Of a stretch of 64,000 nucleotides of DNA, positions 1,997 through 14,049 are shown one piece after another. Below the pieces are notes generated by a model. That model was not told where the DNA came from. It saw only the letters and a program-made list of their open reading frames with translations, and did not search any database. Source of the stretch: an uncultured Chloroflexia bacterium (GTDB taxonomy: Bacteria; Chloroflexota; Anaerolineae; JAAYZQ01); assembly GCA_963700285.1 (NCBI GenBank), contig CAVOXA010000010.1, positions 1,248,001-1,312,000 of the forward strand, written 5' to 3'. Numbering within the stretch: position 1 is the stretch's first letter; each line of letters begins with the position of its first letter. Position numbers and translations under genes: made by a program.

Positions 1997-3322
1997 CTAC
2001 AAGCTTAACCGCCCCGACCCCTTGCAGACGGGGCAGTTCAGGCCGCCCAGGACCTTGCCGTCGCCACCGCAGAGGGGGCAGCCAATGCCCGACTGCTTGC
2101 CGCTGCTGGCTTGCACAGGCTTGGAGGCTGAGGGCGGCGCGGCCTGCTGGGCCGTCTTGCCTTTCTGCTGCTCGCTCTGTCCAAAGAGCATCCGCACAAA
2201 GGTCACCAGCGCCGTGCCCAGGATCTCGCCCAGGGTGGGACTCCAGCGCTGGACCGTCTCAAAGAACTTGCTGCCCGTGGGCGCCAGCCGGTCCAGCTCG
2301 ATCTTGAGCTGGCTGGCCGAGGGACGTCGCCGCGGGTCAGGATCCAAGCAGCGGTTCACGATTCCGACCACCGCCGGACTGAGGTCGGGCCGCAGCTCAG
2401 AGAGCGGCTGAAAGGTCGCGAAGGAACGCAACAGCTCCATGTCCAGCTCGGGGAAGGCCGTAAAGCGGTCGCGGGGATCCCGCGCCGTGAGCAGGTGGTG
2501 CATGGTCGCGCCCAGGGCATAGATGTCCGACCGGGTGGAGGGCTGCATCTGCCACTGCTCCAAAGGGGTATAGCCGGGCGTGCCGGCGGCCACGGTCTTG
2601 CCCCCGGCGACCATCACCCGTGCCCCGCTGCTGACGGCGGCCCGGGCCAGGCCAAAGTCCACCAGCCATATCCGCTCCTCAGGATCGATGATGATGTTGG
2701 CTGGCTTGATATCGCGGTGGACGACCGGCTCGGGCTTGCGGCTGTGGAGATAGGTCAGCGCGCCCACAACTTCTGTGGCGCAAGAGACGACTTCTGCCTC
2801 CGAAAGGGGGCGCTTGAGCCGTTCCAGCCGCCGCTCGAGGCTTTCGCCCTCGATGTACTTCATCACCAGGTACTGGTCCAGGCCCTCGACGAAATAGCCA
2901 TACACCTCCGGGATGCGGGGATGGCCGGGATGGTTGAGCCGGGCCAGCACCTCGGCCTCGCGCTTGAAATCCTCCTCCGCTTTGCGCCGTTCGCTCTGCG
3001 TGGCGAAAAAGGGGCGCATCTGCTTGACCACGCACAATCGGCCAAAGAGTTCCTCGTCCTTGGCCAGGTAGACGGCGCCCATGCCCCCCTGTCCCAACTG
3101 GCCCATGATCTGGTAGCGGCCGCCCTGAAGCGACTTGCCTGTGGGCAAGGGAGTGGTTCCCCCATCTTCGCTCGGAGCATTTTCCCGGGATTGTTGCTCG
3201 CCAGCCGGTAGGACGCTATCGCTGGCTCTCTGCAGACCGGCGGCCGCGAATCGCACGCCGCACTTGGTGCAGAATCGCGCCTTGGGATCCGCGGGCGCCC
3301 CACACTGCGGACAGTTAGCCAT
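1997..3322 (-). CDS. Hanks-type Ser/Thr protein kinase with N-terminal zinc ribbon and C-terminal CxxCxGxG zinc finger
   Basis: CPQC..CTKC; GQGGMGAVY, HRDIKPAN, DFG, GTPGY; C-terminal CPLCGGDG...CPVCKGSG; ATG overlaps the PP2C stop. Confidence 0.93.
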   Translation of the reverse strand: MANCPQCGAPADPKARFCTKCGVRFAAAGLQRASDSVLPAGEQQSRENAPSEDGGTTPLPTGKSLQGGRYQIMGQLGQGGMGAVYLAKDEELFGRLCVVKQMRPFFATQSERRKAEEDFKREAEVLARLNHPGHPRIPEVYGYFVEGLDQYLVMKYIEGESLERRLERLKRPLSEAEVVSCATEVVGALTYLHSRKPEPVVHRDIKPANIIIDPEERIWLVDFGLARAAVSSGARVMVAGGKTVAAGTPGYTPLEQWQMQPSTRSDIYALGATMHHLLTARDPRDRFTAFPELDMELLRSFATFQPLSELRPDLSPAVVGIVNRCLDPDPRRRPSASQLKIELDRLAPTGSKFFETVQRWSPTLGEILGTALVTFVRMLFGQSEQQKGKTAQQAAPPSASKPVQASSGKQSGIGCPLCGGDGKVLGGLNCPVCKGSGRLSL

Positions 3323-4160
3323 GGCGCTCCTCCACCCGCACCAGCACAACGGTGATATTGTCCTCGCCGCCGGCCTCGTTGGCCGCGTCCACCAACCGGC
3401 GGCAGATCTGGGACGGAGAGCCGCCGCCAGTCAAAAACTCTGCCAGCCAGGCTATTGGCTGGACCATGTCCCACAACCCGTCCGAACAGAGCAGCAACGC
3501 ATCGCCTGGGTACAGTGCAAAAGAGGGATAGATATCCACCTCCAGGTCAGGCTTGAGGCCCAGGCAGCGGTAGAGAACGTTGCGGTGGGGATGGCTTTGA
3601 ACTTCTGCTGGTGTGATCCTGCCCTGCTTGAGCAGCGCCCCTGGCACCGAGTGGTCCTCGGTCAGTTGGCGCAGCCCGCCGTCGCGCCACAGGTAGGCCC
3701 GGCTGTCTCCCACGTGGGCCACGGTAGCCTGGCCGTCCTCCACGACAGCCAGCGTCAGCGTGGTCCCCATGTCCCCGGCCTCTCCCGGGTGGGTACGCGC
3801 ATAGCCCAACAGCACCTGATTGGCCCGTTCCACCGCGTGTTCCAGCAATCGGGCGCGATCGGTCTCCTCCAGACGCACGGTGAACCCGCTGCCCACGGCG
3901 GCCAAGGCTTCGGCATCCAGGCGCCGCGTGGCCGAGGGGTCTTGGGGGCGAAAGAGCGGCGCCAGTTCCCGCTTGAGGGTTTGAACGGTCCACTCGCTGG
4001 CCACCTCGCCTGCCAGGTGGCCGCCCATGCCGTCTGCCACGACAAAGAGGCCGAGAGGCTCCTCGTCGGAAGCCTGGACGACCCGGTAGTAGAAGCGATC
4101 CTCATTCAGTTCTCGCTCGCGGCCAACGTCCGTCAGCCCGGCGACAGAAAGCCAAGTCAT
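3315..4160 (-). CDS. PP2C-family (Stp1/PrpC-like) Ser/Thr phosphatase
   Basis: TDVGRERELNED, VADGMGGH, HVGDSRAY, LCSDGLWD, GGEDNIT motifs. Confidence 0.95.
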   Translation of the reverse strand: MTWLSVAGLTDVGRERELNEDRFYYRVVQASDEEPLGLFVVADGMGGHLAGEVASEWTVQTLKRELAPLFRPQDPSATRRLDAEALAAVGSGFTVRLEETDRARLLEHAVERANQVLLGYARTHPGEAGDMGTTLTLAVVEDGQATVAHVGDSRAYLWRDGGLRQLTEDHSVPGALLKQGRITPAEVQSHPHRNVLYRCLGLKPDLEVDIYPSFALYPGDALLLCSDGLWDMVQPIAWLAEFLTGGGSPSQICRRLVDAANEAGGEDNITVVLVRVEERHG

Positions 4161-4203
4161 AGATGCTACCTTTTGCCAACCCTTGCCCCCTTCGTCGGGG
4201 CGA

Positions 4204-6033
4204 TCAGCCAAACAAACCACTCTTCACACGGAGCCTGACCTCTACCCGCTGGCCCTGCCCGCCGTCGAGCGTAAAGGTCAGGGCGGCTTGCTGTTTCCGC
4301 CCCTGGATCTTGGCCATACGCCCGACCAATTCTACGCTCTGCCGGACGCCAGGTTGCAGGCCAAACTGCTCCGGCTTGACCAGCAGCCACGCCGGAGCGC
4401 CTACGACCCGGCACTGGGCCGCGGCCCGGCTGATGTTGGTCACCGTCACGGTCCTCCGGGGGGTGCTCAACGCTCCCCGGGACACGCGGCCAAAGTCCAC
4501 GATCACAGGTTCAACGCGGATGGCTGCCGTGGTGACGGTGATCTGCACCGACAGGACTTTGGGTGCACCCCCCTCGGGTTCCAGGGTGACGGCAGCCAGG
4601 TGAGCCTGGTTTGGAGCAAGCCCCGTGGTGTCGATCTCGACCAGCACCCGGGCAGCCTGGCCCGGCGGGCAGCCGAACCTGTCGCTGCCTACCTTGAGCC
4701 AGGGCTGGTTGCTCCAAACTTCGCCGCGCAGGTAACCCCCGCCCAGATTGCTGATCTCGATCTGTTGCGGAATCCTCTGGCCCACGCCCACTTGTGGAAG
4801 CCGCAGGATCTCTGTACTCAGTTGCAGCACCCCCGGTGGCAGGGCGGAGGGATCGAGTTGCCGGATAAAGGTGTCCAGGGCGGCATCGGGGTCTTGGGGC
4901 CACTGCACCACCGCTGCCTCCGCTGCCTGGGCGGCTGCCGCATCGTGCAGCGTCCCGCGCAACCAACGGGCCAAGGTCCCATCCTGGAGGATGCTGGCCG
5001 CATAGCGCCAGTGCTCGACCGCCAGGGCCAGGAGGCTGGCGCGGCTGTTGGCCGCATCGCCGTCGGGAAAGGTCAGCGCCCGCAAGGGGGCGTTTCGACC
5101 GCCCACATAACCCTCTAATCGCTGGCGGAACTGGGCTGCTGTCAGGCGCTTGTCGATCTCTTCAGCCAGCGCCGCGCGCAGAATGCCAGCCAGGGCCTGA
5201 GGCAGTGCGGAAAGCTGCGGGTATTGGAAAGGATGATCGCGGGGATCGTCGTCGGTAAGCAGGTGGTAGGCCGTGGCGGCCAGGGAGTAGACATCGGAAC
5301 GGGGTTCCGACTGGCCCCGGTAGAGTTCCGGCGCGGCATAGCCCACGGTGCCGTAGAGGCTGTCCCTGTCGCCATCAGGCTGCCCGGCCGAGTGCAAATA
5401 GCGGGTCTTGGCTGTGCCAAAGTCCACCAGCACCGCCCGCCCGCTGTGCTCGTCGATGATGATGTTGCCCGGCTTGATGTCGTTGTGGATGACGGGCGGC
5501 TGGCGGCCGGCCAGATACTCCAGGACCTTGCAGATCTCGCTGGTATAGTGCAATACCTGTTCCGCCGGGGTAGGACCCCCAGTGATGAGCTGGCCTGTGG
5601 CGCTGTCCTCTCGGGTCAGGCCCTTGCGCAGGTCAGGCCCTTCGATATACTCCATCACCAGGTAGTTGTGCCCGCCCTCGGAGAAAAAGGCGTACAGGTC
5701 GGGCACCCCCGGGTGTTTCAGATCGCCCAGGGTGCGGGCCTCGGCCTCGAAGCGCTGGTCGGCCTTCTGTCGCGCCGCGGCGTCGGAGGGGTCGAAATAG
5801 TCAATGACCTCCTTGATCACGGCCAGCCGGTCGAAGGCTTTGGTCTGGGCCACGAGCCACACGGCGCCCATGCCCCCCTTGCCCAGGGGGCGCACAACGC
5901 GATAGCTGCCGCCGTCCAGCAATTGTCCGGGCTGGAGTGGGGCAGCAGCGGTGGCCAGCGGCGTCTGGCACGAGGCGCAGTAGCGCGCGCCGGGCCGGTT
6001 CACACGCCCGCAATTGGGACAGGTCACGCTCAA
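4204..6033 (-). CDS. Ser/Thr protein kinase with N-terminal zinc ribbon and C-terminal BACON/Ig-like domains
   Basis: CPNC..CASC; GKGGMGAVW, HNDIKPGN, DFG, GTVGYAAPE; beta-rich tail (ISNLGGGYLRGEVWSNQPWLKV); probable TTG start 6 nt after AAGGAG. Confidence 0.9.
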   Translation of the reverse strand: MSVTCPNCGRVNRPGARYCASCQTPLATAAAPLQPGQLLDGGSYRVVRPLGKGGMGAVWLVAQTKAFDRLAVIKEVIDYFDPSDAAARQKADQRFEAEARTLGDLKHPGVPDLYAFFSEGGHNYLVMEYIEGPDLRKGLTREDSATGQLITGGPTPAEQVLHYTSEICKVLEYLAGRQPPVIHNDIKPGNIIIDEHSGRAVLVDFGTAKTRYLHSAGQPDGDRDSLYGTVGYAAPELYRGQSEPRSDVYSLAATAYHLLTDDDPRDHPFQYPQLSALPQALAGILRAALAEEIDKRLTAAQFRQRLEGYVGGRNAPLRALTFPDGDAANSRASLLALAVEHWRYAASILQDGTLARWLRGTLHDAAAAQAAEAAVVQWPQDPDAALDTFIRQLDPSALPPGVLQLSTEILRLPQVGVGQRIPQQIEISNLGGGYLRGEVWSNQPWLKVGSDRFGCPPGQAARVLVEIDTTGLAPNQAHLAAVTLEPEGGAPKVLSVQITVTTAAIRVEPVIVDFGRVSRGALSTPRRTVTVTNISRAAAQCRVVGAPAWLLVKPEQFGLQPGVRQSVELVGRMAKIQGRKQQAALTFTLDGGQGQRVEVRLRVKSGLFG

Positions 6034-6287
6034 TACCTGCTCCTTTGCCACGCCAGGTCGATGGCGAACATGGTGCTCCTTTTCCAAGATTTCACGCACG
6101 AATTCGCGACCCATTATAGCCCGGCCCGGGCGATTTGGCAAAGCGCTTGCAGGATGTAGGGTGCGATGGATCCCGTATCAATGATCAGGGACGACGCACC
6201 ATAGCGACAGATGAAGGATGCTCTTACACAGAATCGCGCAGAGGAGAGAGGTCGACAGAGGGGAGAATCACACCGATCTCAGTCCAT

Positions 6288-6323
6288 AAAAAAACTGCGG
6301 CGGGCCTCAAAACCCACCGCAGT
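6288..6323 (-). terminator. Rho-independent terminator after the small ORF
   Basis: Minus strand ACTGCGGTGGG-loop-CCCGCCGCAGT followed by T-run. Confidence 0.8.
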
Positions 6324-6343
6324 CCGGTCTCCATGCTTCCGAA

Positions 6344-6490
6344 TCAGCTAAAGCGCGCCAACAGCCCCTTCAGAGTCCAATGCGAACCTTGGTTCTTCCT
6401 GTAGAGCGCTGCCTTGCGGGCGTCTTCTGATCGGCGAACCCGTAGCTCGGTCTCTATCCTCGTTGCATCCATATACATCCAGTTGGTCAT
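6344..6490 (-). CDS. 48-aa small protein under c-di-AMP riboswitch control (MTNWMYMDATRIETELRVRRSEDARKAALYRKNQGSHWTLKGLLARFS)
   Basis: Strong GAGGAGG RBS, ATG at 6490, TGA at 6346-6344; sole ORF between riboswitch and terminator; below the ORF-track size cutoff. Confidence 0.75.
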   Translation of the reverse strand: MTNWMYMDATRIETELRVRRSEDARKAALYRKNQGSHWTLKGLLARFS

Positions 6491-6555
6491 TGTGTACCTC
6501 CTCGTCTTGAACGGTGGGTATATGGTTTACCCAGCCTGTGAGGTACCCTTGCACG

Positions 6556-6593
6556 AAAAAGAAGGGCACCCAATCTAATATCGGATGACCTTC
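6556..6593 (-). terminator. riboswitch expression-platform terminator
   Basis: Minus strand GAAGGTCATCCGA-loop-TTGGGTGCCCTTC TTTTT overlapping the aptamer 3' end. Confidence 0.75.
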
Positions 6594-6708
6594 TCCCACG
6601 CCTACGGGGTTAGCTGACGGGCTCGGGCCGAAGAAGATGGCCCTGCGGATAAGACTACCGGTTCGCCCCCTGACTTGGATCCCCCGCTGTATGTGCATTC
6701 GGCGGTAT
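6589..6708 (-). ncRNA. cyclic di-AMP riboswitch (ydaO/yuaA family)
   Basis: Minus strand CGCCGAAT...AGCGGGGGATCC...GGGGGCGAACC...CCCGAGCCCGTCAGCTAACCCCGTAGGCGT.GGAGAAGG matches the conserved ydaO-yuaA blocks. Confidence 0.9.
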
Positions 6709-6733
6709 CAACTATGCAGTTGTTACAGCAGTC

Positions 6734-6762
6734 CTTGTACCATAGGTTGCAGGGTCTGTCAA
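6734..6762 (-). promoter_or_regulatory. sigma70-like promoter for the riboswitch leader
   Basis: Minus strand TTGACA-N17-TACAAG with TG extension. Confidence 0.5.
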
Positions 6763-6845
6763 GCTCGGACACCAGAGTGACTAGATTTGACGCGCTCAAT
6801 GCGAACAGCGTAGACGGCTGGAGTTTGTAGAACATTTGAGCGACT

Positions 6846-6874
6846 TTGACGGAGTAGCCATCCCGTGTTAGAAT
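6846..6874 (+). promoter_or_regulatory. sigma70-like promoter, probably giving a leaderless SH3-lhr transcript
   Basis: TTGACG-N17-TAGAAT with TG extension; ATG at 6881 lies at the expected +1. Confidence 0.55.
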
Positions 6875-6880
6875 GGAGCG

Positions 6881-7288
6881 ATGGACAAGGGACGACAGGG
6901 GAATTGCGAAGAGCCACAGAGTGACAGCCGGCGCATGTGCAAGGTGGTCACCGGCTACCGGTCGGCCTACCCTGAACCCTTTGTAGTGCAGGCAGGAGAA
7001 TCCTTGACCGCCGGCGAAAGGGAGAGCGAGTGGCCCGGCTGGATATGGTGCACGAATCGGGAGGGCGAGAGTCGATGGGTACCGGAAACCTACGTGCAGA
7101 GGCAGGGTGAGACGTGCATCGCCCTCCGCGACTATGACGCCACCGAGCTGACCGTCCGGCCCGGCCAAGAGATCATCCCCGGCGAAGAGGCGAGCGGCTG
7201 GATCTGGTGCACAGATCGAGAGGGACAAAGCGGCTGGGTGCCAGCAGAGTACCTGGTCTGCAATCCAGCCGCGGAGCATAACGAATGA
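6881..7288 (+). CDS. tandem SH3-domain protein
   Basis: Two repeats GWIWCT.REG.S.WVP..Y; RDYDATELTV. Confidence 0.85.
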   Translation: MDKGRQGNCEEPQSDSRRMCKVVTGYRSAYPEPFVVQAGESLTAGERESEWPGWIWCTNREGESRWVPETYVQRQGETCIALRDYDATELTVRPGQEIIPGEEASGWIWCTDREGQSGWVPAEYLVCNPAAEHNE

Positions 7289-10200
7289 CGAATGATGGAC
7301 CACGAATGACCAACAACGAAACTAGTTCTCCCCTGGACGCCTTTCTGCCAGCCGTACAAACCTGGTTCTACGAGACCTTTGGCGAGCCCACGCCGCCCCA
7401 GGCTATGGGCTGGCCGGCCATCCAGCGCGGCGAGCACACCCTGATCCTGTCGCCCACCGGGTCGGGCAAGACGCTGGCCGCTTTCCTGTGGGGCATCGAC
7501 CAATTGTACCGCGAGACCTTGGAGCAAGAAAGCCAGGAAACAGGCGAAAGCCGTGAGGAGGGGGTACGCCTGCTCTACGTGTCGCCGCTGAAGGCGCTGA
7601 ACAACGACGTGGAGCGCAACCTGCGCGCGCCGCTGGCCGGCATCCGCCGCGTGGCCGAGGAGCAGGGCTCACACCTGCCCCGCCTGTCGGTGCTGGTCCG
7701 CACCGGCGACACCCCCCAATCGGTCCGGCGGCAGATGGTCAAGCACCCGCCCCACATTCTGATCACCACACCCGAGTCACTGTACCTGATCCTGACCAGT
7801 CCCGTGGCCCGCGAGATGTTTCGCACTGTGCGGACCCTGATCGTGGACGAGATCCACACCCTGGTCGGCAACAAGCGCGGCGTGCACCTGGCCGTCTCCC
7901 TGGAGCGCGTCGTCGAGCTGGCCGGGCGTCCCATCCAGCGCATCGGCCTCTCGGCCACCCAGCGCCCGCTGGATGAGGTTGCCCGCTTTCTGGGCGGCTA
8001 CGAGTCCCAGGTCAACGCAGAACGCGGTACGCCGTCCGGCGGCCTCGGGGATCCCGTCCCCCGGCCCGTCACCATCGTCGACGCCGGCATGGTCAAACCG
8101 ATGGACCTGAAGGTCATCACCGCCGTGGAGGATTTCAGCGACCTGCCCGGCGGCAGCATCTGGCCGGCCATCATCCCCCAGGTGATGGACCTCATCGAGG
8201 CCCACCGCACGACGCTCGTCTTTGCCAACAGCCGCCGCCAGGCCGAGCGCGCCGCCGACCGGCTCAACGACCTGTACCTGGCCCGACAGGCGGGGCGGGC
8301 CGGCGGCCCCGAGGCAATGATGGAAGGCGGCGCCGTCAAGGGCCTCGGCATCCAGGGCACCGGCGCCGCCGGCGGGCCCTTCCGCGCCCACCACGGCAGC
8401 GTCAGCCGCGAGGCGCGCCTGCAACTGGAGCAGGCGCTGAAGGACGGGCCGGCTGCCGGCGCTGGTGGGCACCTCGTCGCTGGAGCTGGGCATCGACATC
8501 GGCGCCGTGGACCTGGTCGTGCAGCTCCAGTCGCCCAAGGGGGTGGCCCGGGGCCTGCAGCGGGTGGGACGCTCCGGCCACCTGGTGGGCCAGACCAGCG
8601 CGGGCCGCTTTTTCCCCACCCACCGCGAGGACCTGCTCGAGATCGGCGGCCATCGCCCGGGCCATGCTCGAGGGCGACGTGGAGCCGACCTACGCGCCTC
8701 AGAACAGCCTCGATGTGCTGGCCCAACAGATCGTGGCCATGGTCAGCGTGCAGGACTGGGACGTGCCGGCCCTGCTGGACCTGATGCGCCGCGCCTACCC
8801 CTACCACAAGCTGACGCTCCGAGCTCTACCGCGCCGTGCTGGACATGCTGACGGGCCGCTATCCCAGCACCGCCTTCCGCGAGCTGCGGCCGCGCATCGC
8901 CTGGGACCGGGTCCACGACCGGCTCACGGCCCTGCCCGGCAGCCGCCTGCTGGCCATCCGCAACGGCGGCACCATCCCCGACCGGGGCACTTTTGCCGCC
9001 TATCTGCCCGACCGCAAGACGCGGCTGGGCGAACTGGACGAGGAGTTTGTCTTCGAGACGCGTCCCGGCGACGTGTTCACCCTGGGGGCCAGCACCTGGC
9101 GCGTGCAGGAGGTCACCGACGACCGGGTCATCGTCACCCCGGCGCCCGGCTACCTGCCGCGCATGCCCTTCTGGAAGGGGGACGCGCCCCGGCGGGACTA
9201 TCACCTGGGCGAGATCTATGGCCGCTTCCGCCGCGAGCTGGCCGAGCGCATAGCGCAAGGGACCAGGGAGCGGATGGCAGCGGACGGGGCGCACGAGGTC
9301 GTGGACGAAGGGCTTTCGAAGCAGAGGATGCCCAGGCGGAAGCCTGCATTACAGACTGGCTCCAGGAAGACTATCGTCTCGACATCCACTCGGCGCGGAA
9401 CGCGGTCCGCTACGTGGCCCGCCAGATGGACGTACTGGGCACCATCTCGTCCGACCGGACCGTCATCGCCGAGATGTTCACCGATCCCCTGGGCGACCTG
9501 CGGCTGGTGATCCACTCCTGCTTTGGCGCCCGGGTGAACAGCCCCTGGGCGCTGGCCCTGTCCCAGGCCTTTCGCGAGGCCATGGGCCGACCCGGCGCGC
9601 TGGGACCCAGGCCCGAGGTCATGGTCAGCGACGATGGCATCCTCTTCCGCTTCCTGGAGACCGACCAGGAACCGCCCCTGGACCTGATCCGCGAGATGGG
9701 GCCGGCCGAGGCCCGGGAGCGGCTCCTGGTCGAGCTGCCCAACTCGGCCGTGTTTGGCGCCCAGTTTCGCATGAACGCCGCCCGCGCCCTGCTGCTGCCC
9801 GCCGCCAAAGGCGCCCAGAAACGCACGCCTTTCTGGCTGCAGCGCCTGCGGGCCAAGGACCTGCTGTCGGTGGCCAAGGGGTTTGAGGATTTCCCCATCG
9901 TCGCCGAGACCTACCGCGATTGCCTGCGCGACGTGCTGGACCTGGCACACCTGGAGGAGGTACTGCGCGGCATCCAGGGCGGCGAGATCGAGGTGGTGAT
10001 CAACGAGACGATGGTGCCCAGCCCCGTGGCCGGCAGCCTGCTCTACGACATGATCGCCAAGTACATGTACGAGTGGGACCAGCCCAAGGCCGAGCGCCAG
10101 ATGCAGGCCCTGATGGTGGGCCGCGAGCTGCTGTCCCAGCTCCTGGACGACGCCTCGGCGAGGGCTCGCTGCCCGACCTGCTGCGTCCGGAGGCGGTGCG

Positions 10201-12155
10201 CGACGTGGACGCCCGCCTGCAGTACCTGGCCGACGGCAGCCGGGCCCGCACGCCCGAGGAACTGGCCACCATCTTTCTGGCCCTGGGTGACCTGTCGGCC
10301 GAGGAGGCGGCCGCCCGCAGCGACGGCGATGGCGCGGCCTGGGTCGAGGACCTGGCAGCCGAGGGCCGCCTCGCTGCCTCTGGATCTAGCCGGCGACCGC
10401 CGCTACGTCCTGCCGGAGCAGGCGGACGCCTACCGGGCAGCCTTTGGCCCCGCGTCGCCCGAAGGCATGGTGTCAGACGAATCCCGCCGGGCCATCCTGC
10501 GCCGCGTCCTGAGCACCCACGGCCCGCTGACCCGCGGCTGGCTCCTGGCCCGCTATCCCTGGCCGCCCGAGTGGCTCGACGCCGCCCTGGAGGCCCTCGT
10601 CGAAAACGGCGAGGTCGTGACCGGCCAAATCACGCCCAGAGATCCGTCCGGTCCCCAAATTGCCGGCACAGTGGCGAACGAAGCTGAAGCAGTCCGAGCC
10701 CGGATCCCCGGCCCCCAGAATATTGCGACCGCCGCAACCTGGAGCGCATCCACCGCCAGACACTGGCACTGCTGCGCAAAGAGGTCGAGCCGGTGTCCAT
10801 CTATGCCTACGCCGATTTCCTGGCCCGCTGGCAGCACCTCCATCCCGCCGAGCGGCTGTCCGGGCCCGGGGCACTGGTCCGCCTGCTGCAGCAGATGCGC
10901 GGCGTGCCAGCCCCAGGGCTCATCTGGGAGCGGGACCTGCTGCCCTTGCGCCTGGAGGCCTTTGACGCCAGGCGAGCTGGAGGATCTGTGCGGGCAAGGC
11001 GACGTGGTCTGGGTCGGCTCCGGAGGCAAGGACCCGCGACGGGCCCGGGTACGTTTTCTCTTCCGCGGCGAGGGCAACCTGTTTCTGCCTGCCGAGCCGG
11101 ATGAACCCGATCTATCGCCCCCCGCCGCCCAGGTGCTGGCCTTCCTCAGGTCGGAGGGGGCCTGTTTCTTTGCCGACCTGGAAGCGGGGACCGACCTGTC
11201 TAGCAACGAGCTTGAGCGCGGCCCTGGTCGAGCTGGTCATGGCTAGCCTGGTGACCAACGACTCGCTCCAGGCGCTGCGGCAGGTACTGGCCTGGAGCGA
11301 GCTGAGGAGCTTGCGCCCGGCGCAAGCCCCTCAGCTCGCTGGAGGCCGAGCTGTCCGCCTGGCGCAAGACCTCGCCACCCGTTTTGGGAGCGCGCGACCC
11401 GCCCCAGCCGGGCGCGGATCTGCAGCGCGCCCAGCGCACCGCCGGCCGCCGCGTGGAACGGGCGACGGCGCCCCGCTGGCCCGGTCGCTGGAGCCTGGTG
11501 CACCGCATCGGCGTCTGGGGCAGGGAAGTGCCCTTCGAGGAGCGGATCGAGCGCCAGGCGCGGCAGTTGCTGCAGTGCTACGGCATCGTCACCCGGCAGA
11601 GCCTGGAGGGCGACCCCGAGGGCGGGCTGGGATTGGCGCGCGCTCTACCCCCAGTTCCAGTTGATGGAGATGCGGGGCGAGGTACGGCGCGGCTACTTTG
11701 TGCAGGGCCTGCCCGGCGTGCAGTTCGCCCTGCCCGAGGCGGTGGAGCGCCTGCGCGACTGGACTCGCCCCGATGCGGCGGATATCGAGGAACTCGTGCT
11801 GCTCAACGCCAGCGATCCGGCCAACCTCTTTGGCCCGGCCCTGCCGGGCGAGCCGGAGGTGGAGCACGACCCGGCCCGCTTCCTGCGCATCCCGGGCAAC
11901 TATGTCGTGCTGCTCCGCGGCCGGCCGGTGCTGCTGCTGGAAACCGGCGGCGAGCGGCTGACGGTGCTGCCTGGCCATGCGGGCGGCGCGCTCAAGCAGG
12001 CGCTCAAGGTGGCCGTCGAGCACGCGGGCCGCTGGCAGCGGCGCCTGACCCTGAGCGAGTGGAACGGCCAGCCGATCCTGGAGAACCCCCTGGCCCCGCT
12101 GTTGGAAGAAGTGGGCTTCCGCCGCGAGGCACTGGTCTATGTCTGGGATGGATGA
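7285..12155 (+). CDS. lhr: Lhr ATP-dependent DEAD/DEAH helicase, long form with C-terminal winged-helix/glycosylase-like region (multiple frameshifts)
   Basis: [103 protein letters not shown] across shifting frames. Confidence 0.92.
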
Positions 12156-12231: not shown

Positions 12232-12304
12232 GGTGGATGTAGCTCAAAGGCAGAGCACCGGTCTGTGGAACCGGTGGTTGCGGGTTCAACCCCCGTCATC
12301 CACC
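12232..12304 (+). tRNA. tRNA-His (GTG)
   Basis: Acceptor GTGGATG/CATCCAC with G-1 and C discriminator; anticodon stem CCGGT/ACCGG, loop CTGTGGA; T-arm GGTTCAAC. Confidence 0.97.
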
Positions 12305-12314
12305 CAGTGGACAT

Positions 12315-12351
12315 AAACAGGGAGGGGTTACTAACTGCCTCTCCCTGTTTT
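12315..12351. terminator. bidirectional terminator between tRNA-His and abiEii
   Basis: AAACAGGGAGGGG...CCTCTCCCTGTTTT hairpin. Confidence 0.75.
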
Positions 12352-12372
12352 GATTTGTCTGCGCTCTGGTCT

Positions 12373-13177
12373 CTAGTCGAGGACGTGCTTCAGGTTCTCC
12401 GCTGTCAAGAGTCCCGCGTCCCCACTCGAGTCCAGAAATGGCCGTACATCGTCCACGACTTGCTCCCAGGCGACAGCTTGAAGCCGACGGCTGCACGGTC
12501 TGTCGCCAGTTGTCCTCTGTCAACGGTTCGGCTTCCCAGCCTGTCTGTCGCAAGGCATTGTTCAGCAAGGTCAGGTTGGGTGCCGGCCAACCGGGATCGC
12601 TCAGATACCACAACAGGTCGTAGAGGTCGCGCCCCTTGAGATAAGGACGCTGCAAGACGGCGTGCAGTTTGCCTGCCAGAAGCGATGCCCGGTCGTGGTG
12701 ATGAAGCTGCAAGGGTACATGACGGCGGATGACGGTCGTTGCCAGTCCTGCCCCGGCCGGCGGATTGGTGTCCACTTCGATCTTGACGGCCAGCACCTCG
12801 TCCCGGTGAGGCGAAAGCTCCAGCTCGTAGAGCAAGCCGCGAAAGCGGACAAAGGCACTGTGCACTGTTTTCTGATCGCTGACCTTCAGGTCGAGGGTGT
12901 AGCCTTCGGCGGTGAACGTGGATTGGATGGCGCGTAGATAGGCACGAAAGTCATACTGAGATTGGCCTTGCTCCAGGGCAAAGTCCAGGTCTTCCGAGTA
13001 GCGAGCGCTGGCATAGAGGAAACGGAGGGCCGTTCCGCCATGAAAGGCCAGAGGGATCATGGCGCCAGCACGTTGGAGTGTGCCCAGGATTCTGGCCTGC
13101 AAGTATTCCCGAGCCAGGTTTCGTCCGTGGATGGGAGTAGGAGCAGTACGGACAAGGGTAATCAGGTATTCTTTCAT
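12373..13177 (-). CDS. abiEii: AbiEii/AbiGii-family nucleotidyltransferase toxin (type IV TA); one frameshift near the C-terminus
   Basis: REYLQARIL, FHGGTALRFLY..RYSEDLDF, KIEVD, GKLHAVLQR..KGRDLYDL; alternate frame finishes ...VDDVRPFLD...ENLKHVLD*. Confidence 0.9.
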
Positions 13178-13811
13178 AGGGTTTCGTACGCCCTTTCGGC
13201 TGCGCCAGTTTGATGACAAAGGCTGCTGCCCGTCTCAGTTTCTGGCTTGACGCCAGTTCAGCTTGATGCTGCAACTCTTCCAGGTCAAGTCGCTCCATAC
13301 CTTGCAGGCGTAACTCTTGCAGGTATTCGGCGGAATCCCCACCTGGCTGCAGGTGGACCAGATCCAACAATGCCTTTTCCGGTGTGGCCACAAATGCCTG
13401 CTGGTTGCCCCCCAGGTCGACCAACCGGTACCCAACGAACCACTCGGTCTTGATGTGTCGAAACGTGTAGACACCCAACGGCGTCTGCCATTGACCGGGC
13501 CGGCCGGTGGTGATGCTGGTCGTCACAGGCACGACATCTGGAATCAGTCCATAGTACCCGAGTGCCGATTGCAGGCTGACGTAGGAACTACGCATCATGC
13601 GGTTGGCTACGACAAAGGGATGGGGCTTGACCTTCTGGAAGGGTGGGGCCAGGGCGTATAGGCCCCGGCGCAGTTGGTAGAGACGCCCGGCTTTGGTCCA
13701 GCGGGACAACTGGCGGCGCACATCTTTCGAGTCTACTGCACCCGCCAGCAGCAGCCCGGTCTCGAAAACCGGCTCATCGCCGACGATGTCAAGCAAATGT
13801 GTGAATTCCAT
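13174..13811 (-). CDS. abiEi: AbiEi-family antitoxin/transcriptional regulator
   Basis: QLSRWTKAGRLYQLRRGLY, SYVSLQSALGYYGLIP, ATPEKALLD; likely ATGA overlap with toxin after a 1-nt shift. Confidence 0.88.
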
Positions 13812-13817
13812 GCGCAT

Positions 13818-13846
13818 ATTATACCATGAATGGCATATTACTGCAA
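13818..13846 (-). promoter_or_regulatory. abiE promoter with overlapping imperfect inverted repeat (putative autorepression operator), leaderless
   Basis: Minus strand TTGCAG-N17-TATAAT, ATG 6 nt downstream; ATATGCCA..TGGTATA dyad in the spacer. Confidence 0.6.
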
Positions 13847-13882
13847 CAGAACGTCGATGCTGTCTGTAGCGTGGTGCCATTG

Positions 13883-13919
13883 TTTTGGTAACCGGGGGTC
13901 TAACCCCCGTCATCCACCC
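13883..13919 (+). repeat. attR-like copy 1 of tRNA-His 3' end with shared upstream TTGGTAAC motif
   Basis: TTTTGGTAACCGGGGGTCTAACCCCCGTCATCCACCC versus tRNA GGGTTCAACCCCCGTCATCCACCC. Confidence 0.88.
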
Positions 13920-13947
13920 TGTGCGCAACAAAGCGGAGTCACCCCTT

Positions 13948-13980
13948 GAGGGCCTCGTCAGCGGCGAGGCTCTTTTCTTT
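13948..13980 (+). terminator. terminator hairpin following att copy 1
   Basis: GAGGGCCTCG-loop-CGAGGCTC TTTTCTTT. Confidence 0.7.
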
Positions 13981-14049
13981 CTTGCCTCTCTCCACAATCT
14001 TACTATTGATTGTACTGACTGGACAGTGAGACCAACTGACTGCCGATGT

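What the first reader, a model, noticed from the sequence alone, without database searches (positions are those of the whole stretch)
6288..6762. c-di-AMP riboswitch controlling a stand-alone unannotated 48-aa protein
Seen: a complete minus-strand unit of promoter, ydaO-type aptamer, overlapping terminator, GAGGAGG RBS, 48-codon ORF and its own terminator. The peptide is predicted helical, with a charged middle (RIETELRVRRSEDARKAA) and an amphipathic end (WTLKGLLARFS). Established: ydaO/yuaA riboswitches usually regulate K+/osmolyte transporters and cell-wall hydrolases. Inference: a novel small effector of c-di-AMP signalling, perhaps membrane-associated or a modulator of the adjacent kinase operon.
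Basis: partly seen in the sequence, partly recalled or inferred. Interest (0 to 1): 0.7.

Follow-up and report, generated by a model that had tools for sequence, protein, structure and literature searches.

The report
Likely ON-type c-di-AMP switch, micro-protein family
A sensor RNA of the c-di-AMP class sits in front of a conserved, unnamed 48-residue protein gene, and its layout is predicted to turn the gene on when the messenger is high, the reverse of the natural examples in the papers I could read.

Summary
Observation confirmed. RF00379 matches 6584-6714(-) at 84 bits (cut-off 38). The 48-codon ORF is protein-coding. It belongs to an unnamed 42-52-aa Anaerolineae family with pooled dN/dS 0.35 (0.12 against its nearest orthologue). 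The family follows 13 of 16 riboswitch hits in the host family, whose 23 genomes all encode a diadenylate cyclase. The kinase link is not supported: the kinase follows only 3 of 45 loci and has its own promoter.

The new point is the logic. The attenuator hairpin takes its base from the pseudoknot strand that ligand stabilises, so binding should dismantle the terminator: a predicted ON switch. In a pattern-free sample this layout precedes 17 of 19 small ORFs and 7 of 11 ABC exporters, but only 1 of 51 other genes (osmolyte synthesis and uptake; 25 have the OFF layout). The direction rests on modelling only. A ribosome-site layer fits this locus and the exporter loci but not the small-ORF set as a whole.

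The protein's job is inferred: a helix plus an amphipathic membrane-surface helix, partner unknown. The scan noted a 47-aa Anaerolineae case of the same kind on other DNA (e1-7004287).

The parts
6734..6762 (-). sigma70-type promoter: -35 TTGACA (6762-6757), 17-nt spacer, extended -10 TG-n-TACAAG (6739-6734)
   Evidence: sequence; TTGACA conserved in 15 of 16 relatives with enough upstream DNA; not passed by the consensus scan
6584..6714 (-). c-di-AMP (ydaO) riboswitch aptamer, RF00379
   Evidence: 84.1 bits, E 4e-18
6630..6636 (-). P7 loop CUUCUUC, 5' strand of the pseudoknot
   Evidence: 98.7% of cells paired over 44 leaders, 4 of 7 pairs with two-sided change, 0/500 shuffles
6590..6596 (-). 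GGAGAAG: 3' strand of the pseudoknot, and also the base of the attenuator hairpin (the switch element)
6556..6596 (-). attenuator: hairpin (inner stem 6587-6567, basal G-C pairs 6590/6589 with 6564/6565) and U-tract 6563-6556
   Evidence: -19.2 kcal/mol, z -4.1; 5' arm and U-tract present in 78 of 78 leaders although not part of the search pattern
6540..6550 (-). Z element (GGGUACCUC): can pair with the hairpin's 3' arm GGUGCCC or with the ribosome site
   Evidence: 7/7 complement in 58 of 68 leaders vs 0 of 68 control stretches; effect on the ribosome site mixed across loci
6497..6503 (-). ribosome-binding site GAGGAGG
   Evidence: sequence; GGAGG-type site at the same place in relatives
6344..6490 (-). 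48-aa small protein (P0001): helix 3-33, break, amphipathic helix 37-47
   Evidence: dN/dS 0.12 vs nearest orthologue, pooled 0.35; 94 family representatives; AlphaFold2 pLDDT 70
6286..6325 (-). intrinsic terminator after the ORF
   Evidence: RNA-library contigs of 4 studies end at 6329-6338 (weak hint)
6113..6141 (-). separate promoter of the downstream kinase operon (not part of the unit)
   Evidence: TTGCCA-17-TATAAT, 11 of 12

Best explanation
A c-di-AMP-class riboswitch precedes a conserved, protein-coding 48-codon gene and is predicted to switch it ON when c-di-AMP is high; the product is likely a membrane-surface helical effector that would help lower turgor or adjust transport. Mechanism: without ligand, the purine strand GGAGAAG(G) just behind the aptamer is free and completes the attenuator hairpin down to the U-tract, so transcription would stop at about 6558. 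With ligand, that strand is held in the pseudoknot with CUUCUUC. The hairpin loses its basal G-C pairs and ends 3 nt short of the U-tract, and polymerase would read through. The downstream Z element can then pair with the hairpin's 3' arm instead of the ribosome site. Shown: aptamer, coding selection, linkage, dual complementarity of the switch strand, independence from the kinase. Inferred: ligand binding (about 0.9), ON direction (about 0.68), and the protein's membrane and transport role (about 0.35).
For: Aptamer at 84 bits. Cyclase in 23 of 23 family genomes; DarA-type receptor and RCK_C domains in the own genome. Coding selection: pooled dN/dS 0.35 over 11 disjoint pairs; third-position mismatches 126 vs 75 and 67. 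Linkage: 13 of 16 family hits; all 9 strong profile matches in the family lie behind a riboswitch; 42 intact + 2 frameshifted small ORFs among 78 distinct leaders. The pseudoknot covaries, and the same strand pairs 95.8% with the hairpin base and U-tract vs 70% when slid by one. Closure of the terminator base 0.75 free vs 0.18 with the strand blocked, 62 of 78 leaders in that direction. In 81 hits found without the DNA pattern, the ON layout precedes 17 of 19 small ORFs, 7 of 11 ABC exporters and 1 of 51 other genes; unrelated hairpin sequences keep the overlap at L218, L228, L231. The OFF-layout or other genes are osmolyte synthesis/uptake and DarA, and c-di-AMP is known to activate export (KhtTU; PMC10117811, passages). 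The pseudoknot is the most ligand-sensitive part, and an engineered stem competing with it made an ON switch (PMC11963983, passages and section 6). C-terminal hydrophobic moment 0.53 vs 0.39 shuffled.
Against: The folding program cannot form pseudoknots. I modelled the bound state by blocking the strand, which can only weaken a hairpin that uses it, so the test shows overlap, not kinetics. In 13 of 78 leaders the change ran the other way. The overlap involves only 1-2 G-C pairs plus the U-tract pairing, and the 8-bp inner stem survives in the bound state. The terminator helix shows no covariation above shuffles (147-277 of 500), partly because my pattern fixed its 3' arm. The ribosome-site layer is not consistent across small-ORF loci (easier to open in 13-19, harder in 9-23 of 44, depending on the 3' end), and one fold of the window without the pseudoknot strand still hid the ribosome site. 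Three close pairs give dN/dS 0.76-1.24. The window's own C-terminal moment is low (0.31). Kin are not independent in any of these counts. No partner was identified.
Confidence: 0.6

Rival explanations
1. An ordinary OFF switch. The bound aptamer leaves the inner hairpin able to terminate, and the free aptamer supplies an antiterminator (for example the P7 5' strand pairing with GGUGCCCU), so the small protein is made when c-di-AMP is low.
For: The natural cases in the papers I read are OFF (PMC9960051, PMC10117811, PMC11963983; passages). The inner stem forms at 0.98 in the bound model vs 0.81 free, and 13 of 78 leaders close the base better when bound.
Against: No antiterminator dominates the free ensemble (inner stem 0.81, base closed 0.75). 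The bound hairpin ends 2-4 nt before the U-tract in 24 of 30 small-ORF/ABC leaders, whereas 25 of 51 other leaders keep a separate, intact terminator. C residues inside the U-tract mostly sit opposite G of the pseudoknot strand.
Confidence: 0.25
2. The aptamer is a variant that senses another ligand (or mainly Mg2+ or K+), which would explain its distinct gene set.
For: The subtype has its own platform and genes. The window has C at two junction positions where the Rfam consensus has U (GAAC for GAAU, CAGGG for UAGGG).
Against: The core motifs, the P5 change (two-sided) and the pseudoknot fit the consensus. Most subtype members keep both U's. A cyclase is present in 23 of 23 family genomes.
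Confidence: 0.07
3. The switch is as described, but the protein is a soluble regulator: it docks on a transcription factor, the cyclase or a phosphodiesterase, or binds nucleic acid, giving feedback on c-di-AMP itself.
For: Residues R19, A21, E22 and R25 are the best-conserved polar face; median net charge +4. Distant relatives without a riboswitch often sit beside regulator-like genes (labels recalled from sequence, not from a call).
Against: The C-terminal helix is amphipathic across the family. No cyclase, phosphodiesterase or regulator gene was recognised as a recurring neighbour in the printed flanks (read by eye, not scanned).
Confidence: 0.3
4. The protein modulates the adjacent Ser/Thr kinase-phosphatase operon.
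For: Same strand and adjacent in the window, its congener and one close metagenome contig.
Against: Kinase downstream in 3 of 45 loci; the paralogue in the same genome lies elsewhere; a terminator and a separate promoter lie between them.
Confidence: 0.04

Closest known systems
c-di-AMP (ydaO/kimA) riboswitch class, Rfam RF00379; B. subtilis kimA, C. glutamicum nlpC, Streptomyces rpfA and Thermoanaerobacter leaders
   Same: Aptamer sequence, structure and P7-loop pseudoknot; host makes c-di-AMP.
   Different: Described members are OFF and control transporters or wall hydrolases (PMC9960051, PMC10117811, PMC11963983; passages). Here the terminator base is built from the pseudoknot strand (predicted ON) and the gene is a 48-aa protein.
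Engineered ON-riboCdA biosensor (PMC11963983)
   Same: A stem competes for the pseudoknot 3' strand; ligand lets the pseudoknot win and switches expression on.
   Different: That one is synthetic and translational. This one is natural and mainly transcriptional, with a possible second ribosome-site layer.
Fluoride and ZTP riboswitches (ligand-gated strand displacement of a pseudoknot by the terminator; PMC11077080, passages)
   Same: Overlap of the pseudoknot with the terminator's 5' arm.
   Different: Different aptamer and ligand. The overlap here is short (1-2 G-C pairs plus U-tract pairing) and its kinetics are untested.
Cyanophycin-associated ABC exporter + DUF1854 (NF052233, PF08909)
   Same: The same platform precedes a relative of this pair in 30 of 78 leaders. 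It was proposed to export an amino-acid polymer (bioRxiv 10.1101/072470, passages).
   Different: The match is partial and far below the NCBIfam cut-off (198 vs 880 bits on truncated proteins). DUF1854 was not found in 23 of 23 genomes of the window's family, so the peptide is not its subunit here.
Riboswitch-led or transport-modulating small proteins such as E. coli MntS, MgtS and KdpF (recalled)
   Same: A tiny protein as the output of an ion or osmotic signal.
   Different: No sequence match; no transmembrane helix (3 of 84 members pass a hydropathy cut).

Membership tests
c-di-AMP riboswitch (RF00379) | covariance-model score above the gathering cut-off over the full model | tested here: met
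   84.1 vs 38 bits, positions 1-134
c-di-AMP riboswitch (RF00379) | pseudoknot between the P7 loop and the 3' purine strand | tested here: met
   7 pairs, 98.7% paired, 4 with two-sided change, 0/500 shuffles
c-di-AMP riboswitch (RF00379) | host encodes a diadenylate cyclase | tested here: met
   PF02457 at 150 bits in the own genome; 23 of 23 family genomes
c-di-AMP riboswitch (RF00379) | ligand-contacting nucleotides intact | tested here: inconclusive
   core motifs match the consensus, but two junction U's are C in the window; the structure papers were not held
c-di-AMP riboswitch (RF00379) | binds c-di-AMP | not testable with these tools
   needs in-line probing
canonical OFF-type c-di-AMP leader | terminator lies beyond the aptamer and stays complete in the bound state | tested here: not met
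   the base uses the pseudoknot strand; the bound hairpin ends 3 nt before the U-tract; modelled only
pseudoknot-gated ON switch (fluoride/ZTP-like mechanism) | terminator 5' arm overlaps the ligand-stabilised pseudoknot | tested here: met
pseudoknot-gated ON switch (fluoride/ZTP-like mechanism) | ligand raises read-through | not testable with these tools
   needs in vitro transcription
any named protein family | Pfam or NCBIfam match | tested here: not met
   0 families for P0001; no family hit by more than 2 of 32 or 1 of 84 members, all weak; Atlas on a homologue gave only unnamed clusters below 0.9
single-pass membrane peptide or type I toxin | 19-residue hydrophobic helix | tested here: not met
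   maximum hydropathy -0.34 in P0001; 3 of 84 members above 1.6
leader peptide of a downstream operon | fixed downstream gene, no terminator or promoter in between | tested here: not met
   own terminator and separate kinase promoter; neighbours vary; amino-acid-level selection

The most novel reading that the evidence does not exclude
Anaerolineae carry a natural ON subtype of the c-di-AMP riboswitch, so one aptamer runs a two-sided regulon: OFF leaders shut osmolyte synthesis and uptake, while ON leaders induce an exporter or an undescribed family of 50-residue amphipathic proteins that act as dedicated c-di-AMP-induced effectors.
Probability: 0.6. Interest if true: 0.78.

Novelty: new variant of a known kind. 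Interest (0 to 1): 0.64.

Why it matters
c-di-AMP riboswitches are treated as OFF switches, and an ON version had to be engineered for biosensing (PMC11963983). A natural ON platform would widen the known logic of this messenger and supply a ready biosensor part, and it is testable in one transcription assay. It also sorts the Anaerolineae regulon into repressed (osmolyte gain) and induced genes, and puts an unnamed micro-protein family among the induced outputs. In this genome both riboswitch copies control that family and nothing else.

Tried and rejected
Kinase-operon link: rejected.

Peptide as a subunit of the ABC/DUF1854 exporter: rejected for this family. DUF1854 was found in 0 of 23 genomes (completeness 71-95%), and no N-terminally extended ABC was found in the own genome.

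Family libraries and Atlas: no name. The Atlas result is for homologue P0036, not the window's protein.

Homodimer prediction: no answer, score 0.00; it counts neither way. Fold search was not run, because a 48-residue helix pair would give meaningless matches.

More paralogues in the own genome: only the two riboswitch-linked copies among 11,562 small ORFs. No TrkH-type channel was found in the own genome, which is 89% complete. The exact platform pattern was found in 0 of 400 other genomes of a phylum-wide sample.

Transcript evidence: contigs from 4 RNA-library runs of 4 studies cover 6329-6658 with no other letters, and nothing else in 5900-7300. The runs were chosen with this stretch, and no wider control could be laid, so DNA carry-over is not excluded; this is a weak hint only.

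The first automatic pseudoknot caller mis-registered six leaders and was replaced. Two scripts stopped on a parsing error; only their printed parts are used. One search covered 56 of 78 leaders; one search repeated it on 70.

Literature: searches returned no natural ON c-di-AMP switch and no such small protein. Nelson 2013 and the three structure papers were not held, and their supplements (gene-association lists) may bear on novelty.

Full report
OBSERVATION. Rfam RF00379 matches 6584-6714(-) over the full model at 84.1 bits, cut-off 38. Upstream lies TTGACA-17-TG.TACAAG. The consensus scan did not pass it, but TTGACA recurs at the same distance in 15 of 16 relatives with enough upstream DNA. 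The attenuator hairpin folds at z -4.1 and the terminator after the ORF at z -4.7. The ORF 6344-6490 encodes 48 aa. Records carrying the same leader are titled Anaerolineae or Chloroflexota. The genome encodes a diadenylate cyclase, a DarA-type receptor and 16 RCK_C matches; all 23 genomes of the family have the cyclase.

THE ORF IS A REAL GENE. The genome has two riboswitch copies, and each precedes a member of the same small family. In the family, 14 of 23 genomes give 16 hits: 13 are followed by a 42-52-codon ORF (one with a frameshift) and 3 by a phosphate-binding-like protein or a fragment of one. Four of the 13 (L008, L012, L015, L016) are divergent. The profile did not recover them, and L008 aligns only over the first helix (probability 53%). 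Conversely, all 9 strong profile matches in the family lie directly behind a riboswitch. Among 78 distinct leaders (15 loci plus pattern scans 18 and 28), 42 lead to an intact small ORF, 2 to a frameshifted one, 30 to an ABC exporter, 1 to no ORF, and 3 are cut by contig ends. Codon analysis of 32 members gives dN/dS 0.12 for the window against its nearest orthologue, and 0.35 pooled over the 11 of 16 disjoint pairs under 35% divergence. Three close pairs give 0.76-1.24. The profile finds 94 representatives at 50% identity, mostly 47-52 aa, and 52 proteins in the 90% set, named at most 'hypothetical'. No Pfam or NCBIfam family fits.

SHAPE AND WIDER FAMILY. AlphaFold2 gives helix 3-33, a break, and helix 37-47 at pLDDT 70 (one long helix with the narrower alignment). 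There is no transmembrane segment. The C-terminal helix is amphipathic across 84 members (0.53 vs 0.39 shuffled), though weakly in the window's own copy (0.31); median net charge is +4. A wider profile hit 36 of 401 class genomes. Of 26 loci read outside the family, 4 have the riboswitch (3 by Rfam among the 20 scanned; L162 just under the cut-off). The others mostly match the first helix only, and several sit beside regulator-like genes (labels recalled). The riboswitch-linked proteins are therefore a branch of a broader set of uncharacterised small helical proteins.

NOT A KINASE APPENDAGE. The kinase follows 3 of 45 small-ORF loci (35 have at least 500 nt downstream), all closest kin, and it has its own promoter. 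A terminator follows the ORF in 19 of 32 loci by my rule. In one clade an amidohydrolase gene follows closely (7 of 45).

THE SWITCH. The purine strand 6596-6590 has two partners. With the P7 loop CUUCUUC it forms the pseudoknot: 98.7% paired in 44 leaders, two-sided changes in 4 of 7 pairs, 0 of 500 shuffles. With the far side of the attenuator it forms the basal G-C pairs and pairs into the U-tract: 95.8% paired vs 70% when slid by one, but with no covariation above shuffles. The hairpin's 5' arm and the U-tract were not in my search pattern, yet occur in 78 of 78 leaders. When the strand is blocked, the hairpin ends 3 nt before the U-tract. Base closure falls from 0.75 to 0.18 on average, with 62 of 78 leaders in that direction and 13 against. 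The pseudoknot is the most ligand-sensitive element of this aptamer, and a stem engineered to compete with it turned the switch ON (PMC11963983, passages and section 6). Fluoride and ZTP switches use such overlap naturally (PMC11077080, passages). I infer an ON switch.

PATTERN-FREE CHECK. I classified 81 distinct hits from Rfam and protein-profile searches; gene classes were set by hand beforehand. The ON layout precedes 17 of 19 small ORFs, 7 of 11 ABC exporters and 1 of 51 other genes. Of those 51, 25 have a separate terminator that stays intact when bound, 13 have none called, and the other 12 are unclear, abutting or unparsed. Three ABC leaders were unparsed; two of them show the overlap, with hairpin sequences unrelated to the window's. 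Genes behind the other leaders include nucleotidyl-transferases, inositol-1-phosphate synthase, an opine dehydrogenase, amino-acid permeases, a binding protein and DarA. Repressing solute gain and inducing export fits c-di-AMP biology (KhtTU activation; PMC10117811, passages). Relatives are not independent, so these counts are not a statistical test. The exporter resembles the cyanophycin-associated ABC and pairs with DUF1854, proposed to export an amino-acid polymer (bioRxiv 10.1101/072470, passages). DUF1854 was not found in any of the 23 family genomes.

SECOND LAYER. An element after the U-tract is a full 7-nt complement of the hairpin's 3' arm in 58 of 68 leaders (0 of 68 controls) and also pairs with the ribosome site. 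Blocking the pseudoknot strand lowers the cost of opening the site by 1.9-5.2 kcal/mol in the window and in 17-20 of 26 ABC leaders, but not consistently in small-ORF leaders (13-19 easier, 9-23 harder of 44). One fold of the window still hid the site. This layer is plausible, not established.

LIMITS. The folding program cannot form pseudoknots, and blocking a strand can only weaken a hairpin that uses it. The direction is therefore a structural inference (about 0.68). Two junction U's of the consensus are C in the window, and the structure papers were not available to judge them. RNA-library contigs of 4 studies cover only 6329-6658, but the runs were chosen with this stretch and lack a wider control. 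The protein's action is the weakest step. I commit to a membrane-surface effector on transport or turgor (about 0.35); a soluble feedback partner is nearly as likely.

WHAT IS KNOWN. The natural switches described in the papers I read are OFF (PMC9960051, PMC10117811, PMC11963983; passages. PMC7266159 and PMC9481103, passages, add nothing to the contrary). Searches found no natural ON example and no such protein; subscription papers and the Nelson 2013 supplement were out of reach. This scan has unchecked notes on similar units on other DNA: a 47-aa Anaerolineae protein (e1-7004287), probably this family, and a zinc-ribbon case whose cut-off text hints at a switch direction (e1-2776478). My ON reading was written down before that call.

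VERDICT. A real riboswitch and a real small gene; a new variant of a known kind because of the predicted ON platform and the unnamed protein family. Interest 0.64.

Noticed in passing
G000:C10:2050423-2050808 (L002): Second riboswitch of the same genome with the same platform and a 50-aa paralogue (35% identical), in unrelated surroundings; these are the only two RF00379 hits in the genome.
   Followed up: yes
L074:8224-11093, L075:3525-6424 and 28 more leaders: The same platform precedes an N-terminally extended ABC exporter, followed by DUF1854 in the two loci read far enough; a cyanophycin-associated-like pair under c-di-AMP control was not found in my paper searches.
   Followed up: partly
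   Followed up: no
L207:265-924, L225:916-1242: c-di-AMP riboswitches in front of DarA-type c-di-AMP receptor genes (PF06153), a feedback link.
   Followed up: partly
L212:257-418: A 54-aa distant family member behind a riboswitch with a different, terminator-less platform; the same genome (G114) has five riboswitches, three with small ORFs.
   Followed up: partly
L119, L205: A close variant of the platform followed by a hairpin and no ORF.
   Followed up: no
L162, L232, L233 (G151): Aptamers with an extra hairpin inserted before the conserved CAGCUAAC-like core score just under the Rfam cut-off (33-37 bits) yet keep the platform.
   Followed up: partly
L017, L097: Small ORFs with a frameshift; near-identical intact versions exist (L129, P0018), so these are probably sequence errors.
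   Followed up: partly
L159-L181: Riboswitch-free small helical proteins sharing the first-helix motif, with a longer amphipathic tail, often beside regulator-like genes; an uncharacterised wider family in Anaerolineae.
   Followed up: partly
window 1997-6141 (-): Operon of two Ser/Thr kinases with zinc-ribbon-like N-termini around a PP2C phosphatase, with its own strong promoter.
   Followed up: partly
window 6881-7288 (+): Divergent 135-aa tandem SH3-domain gene with promoter TTGACG-17-TAGAAT (6846-6874), followed by a helicase-like gene that appears split over several frames (7285-12155).
   Followed up: no
window 12233-12304 (+), 12296-13997 (-): A tRNA gene overlapped at its end by a two-gene nucleotidyltransferase/regulator pair resembling an AbiE-type module (label recalled), a possible insertion site.
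   Followed up: no
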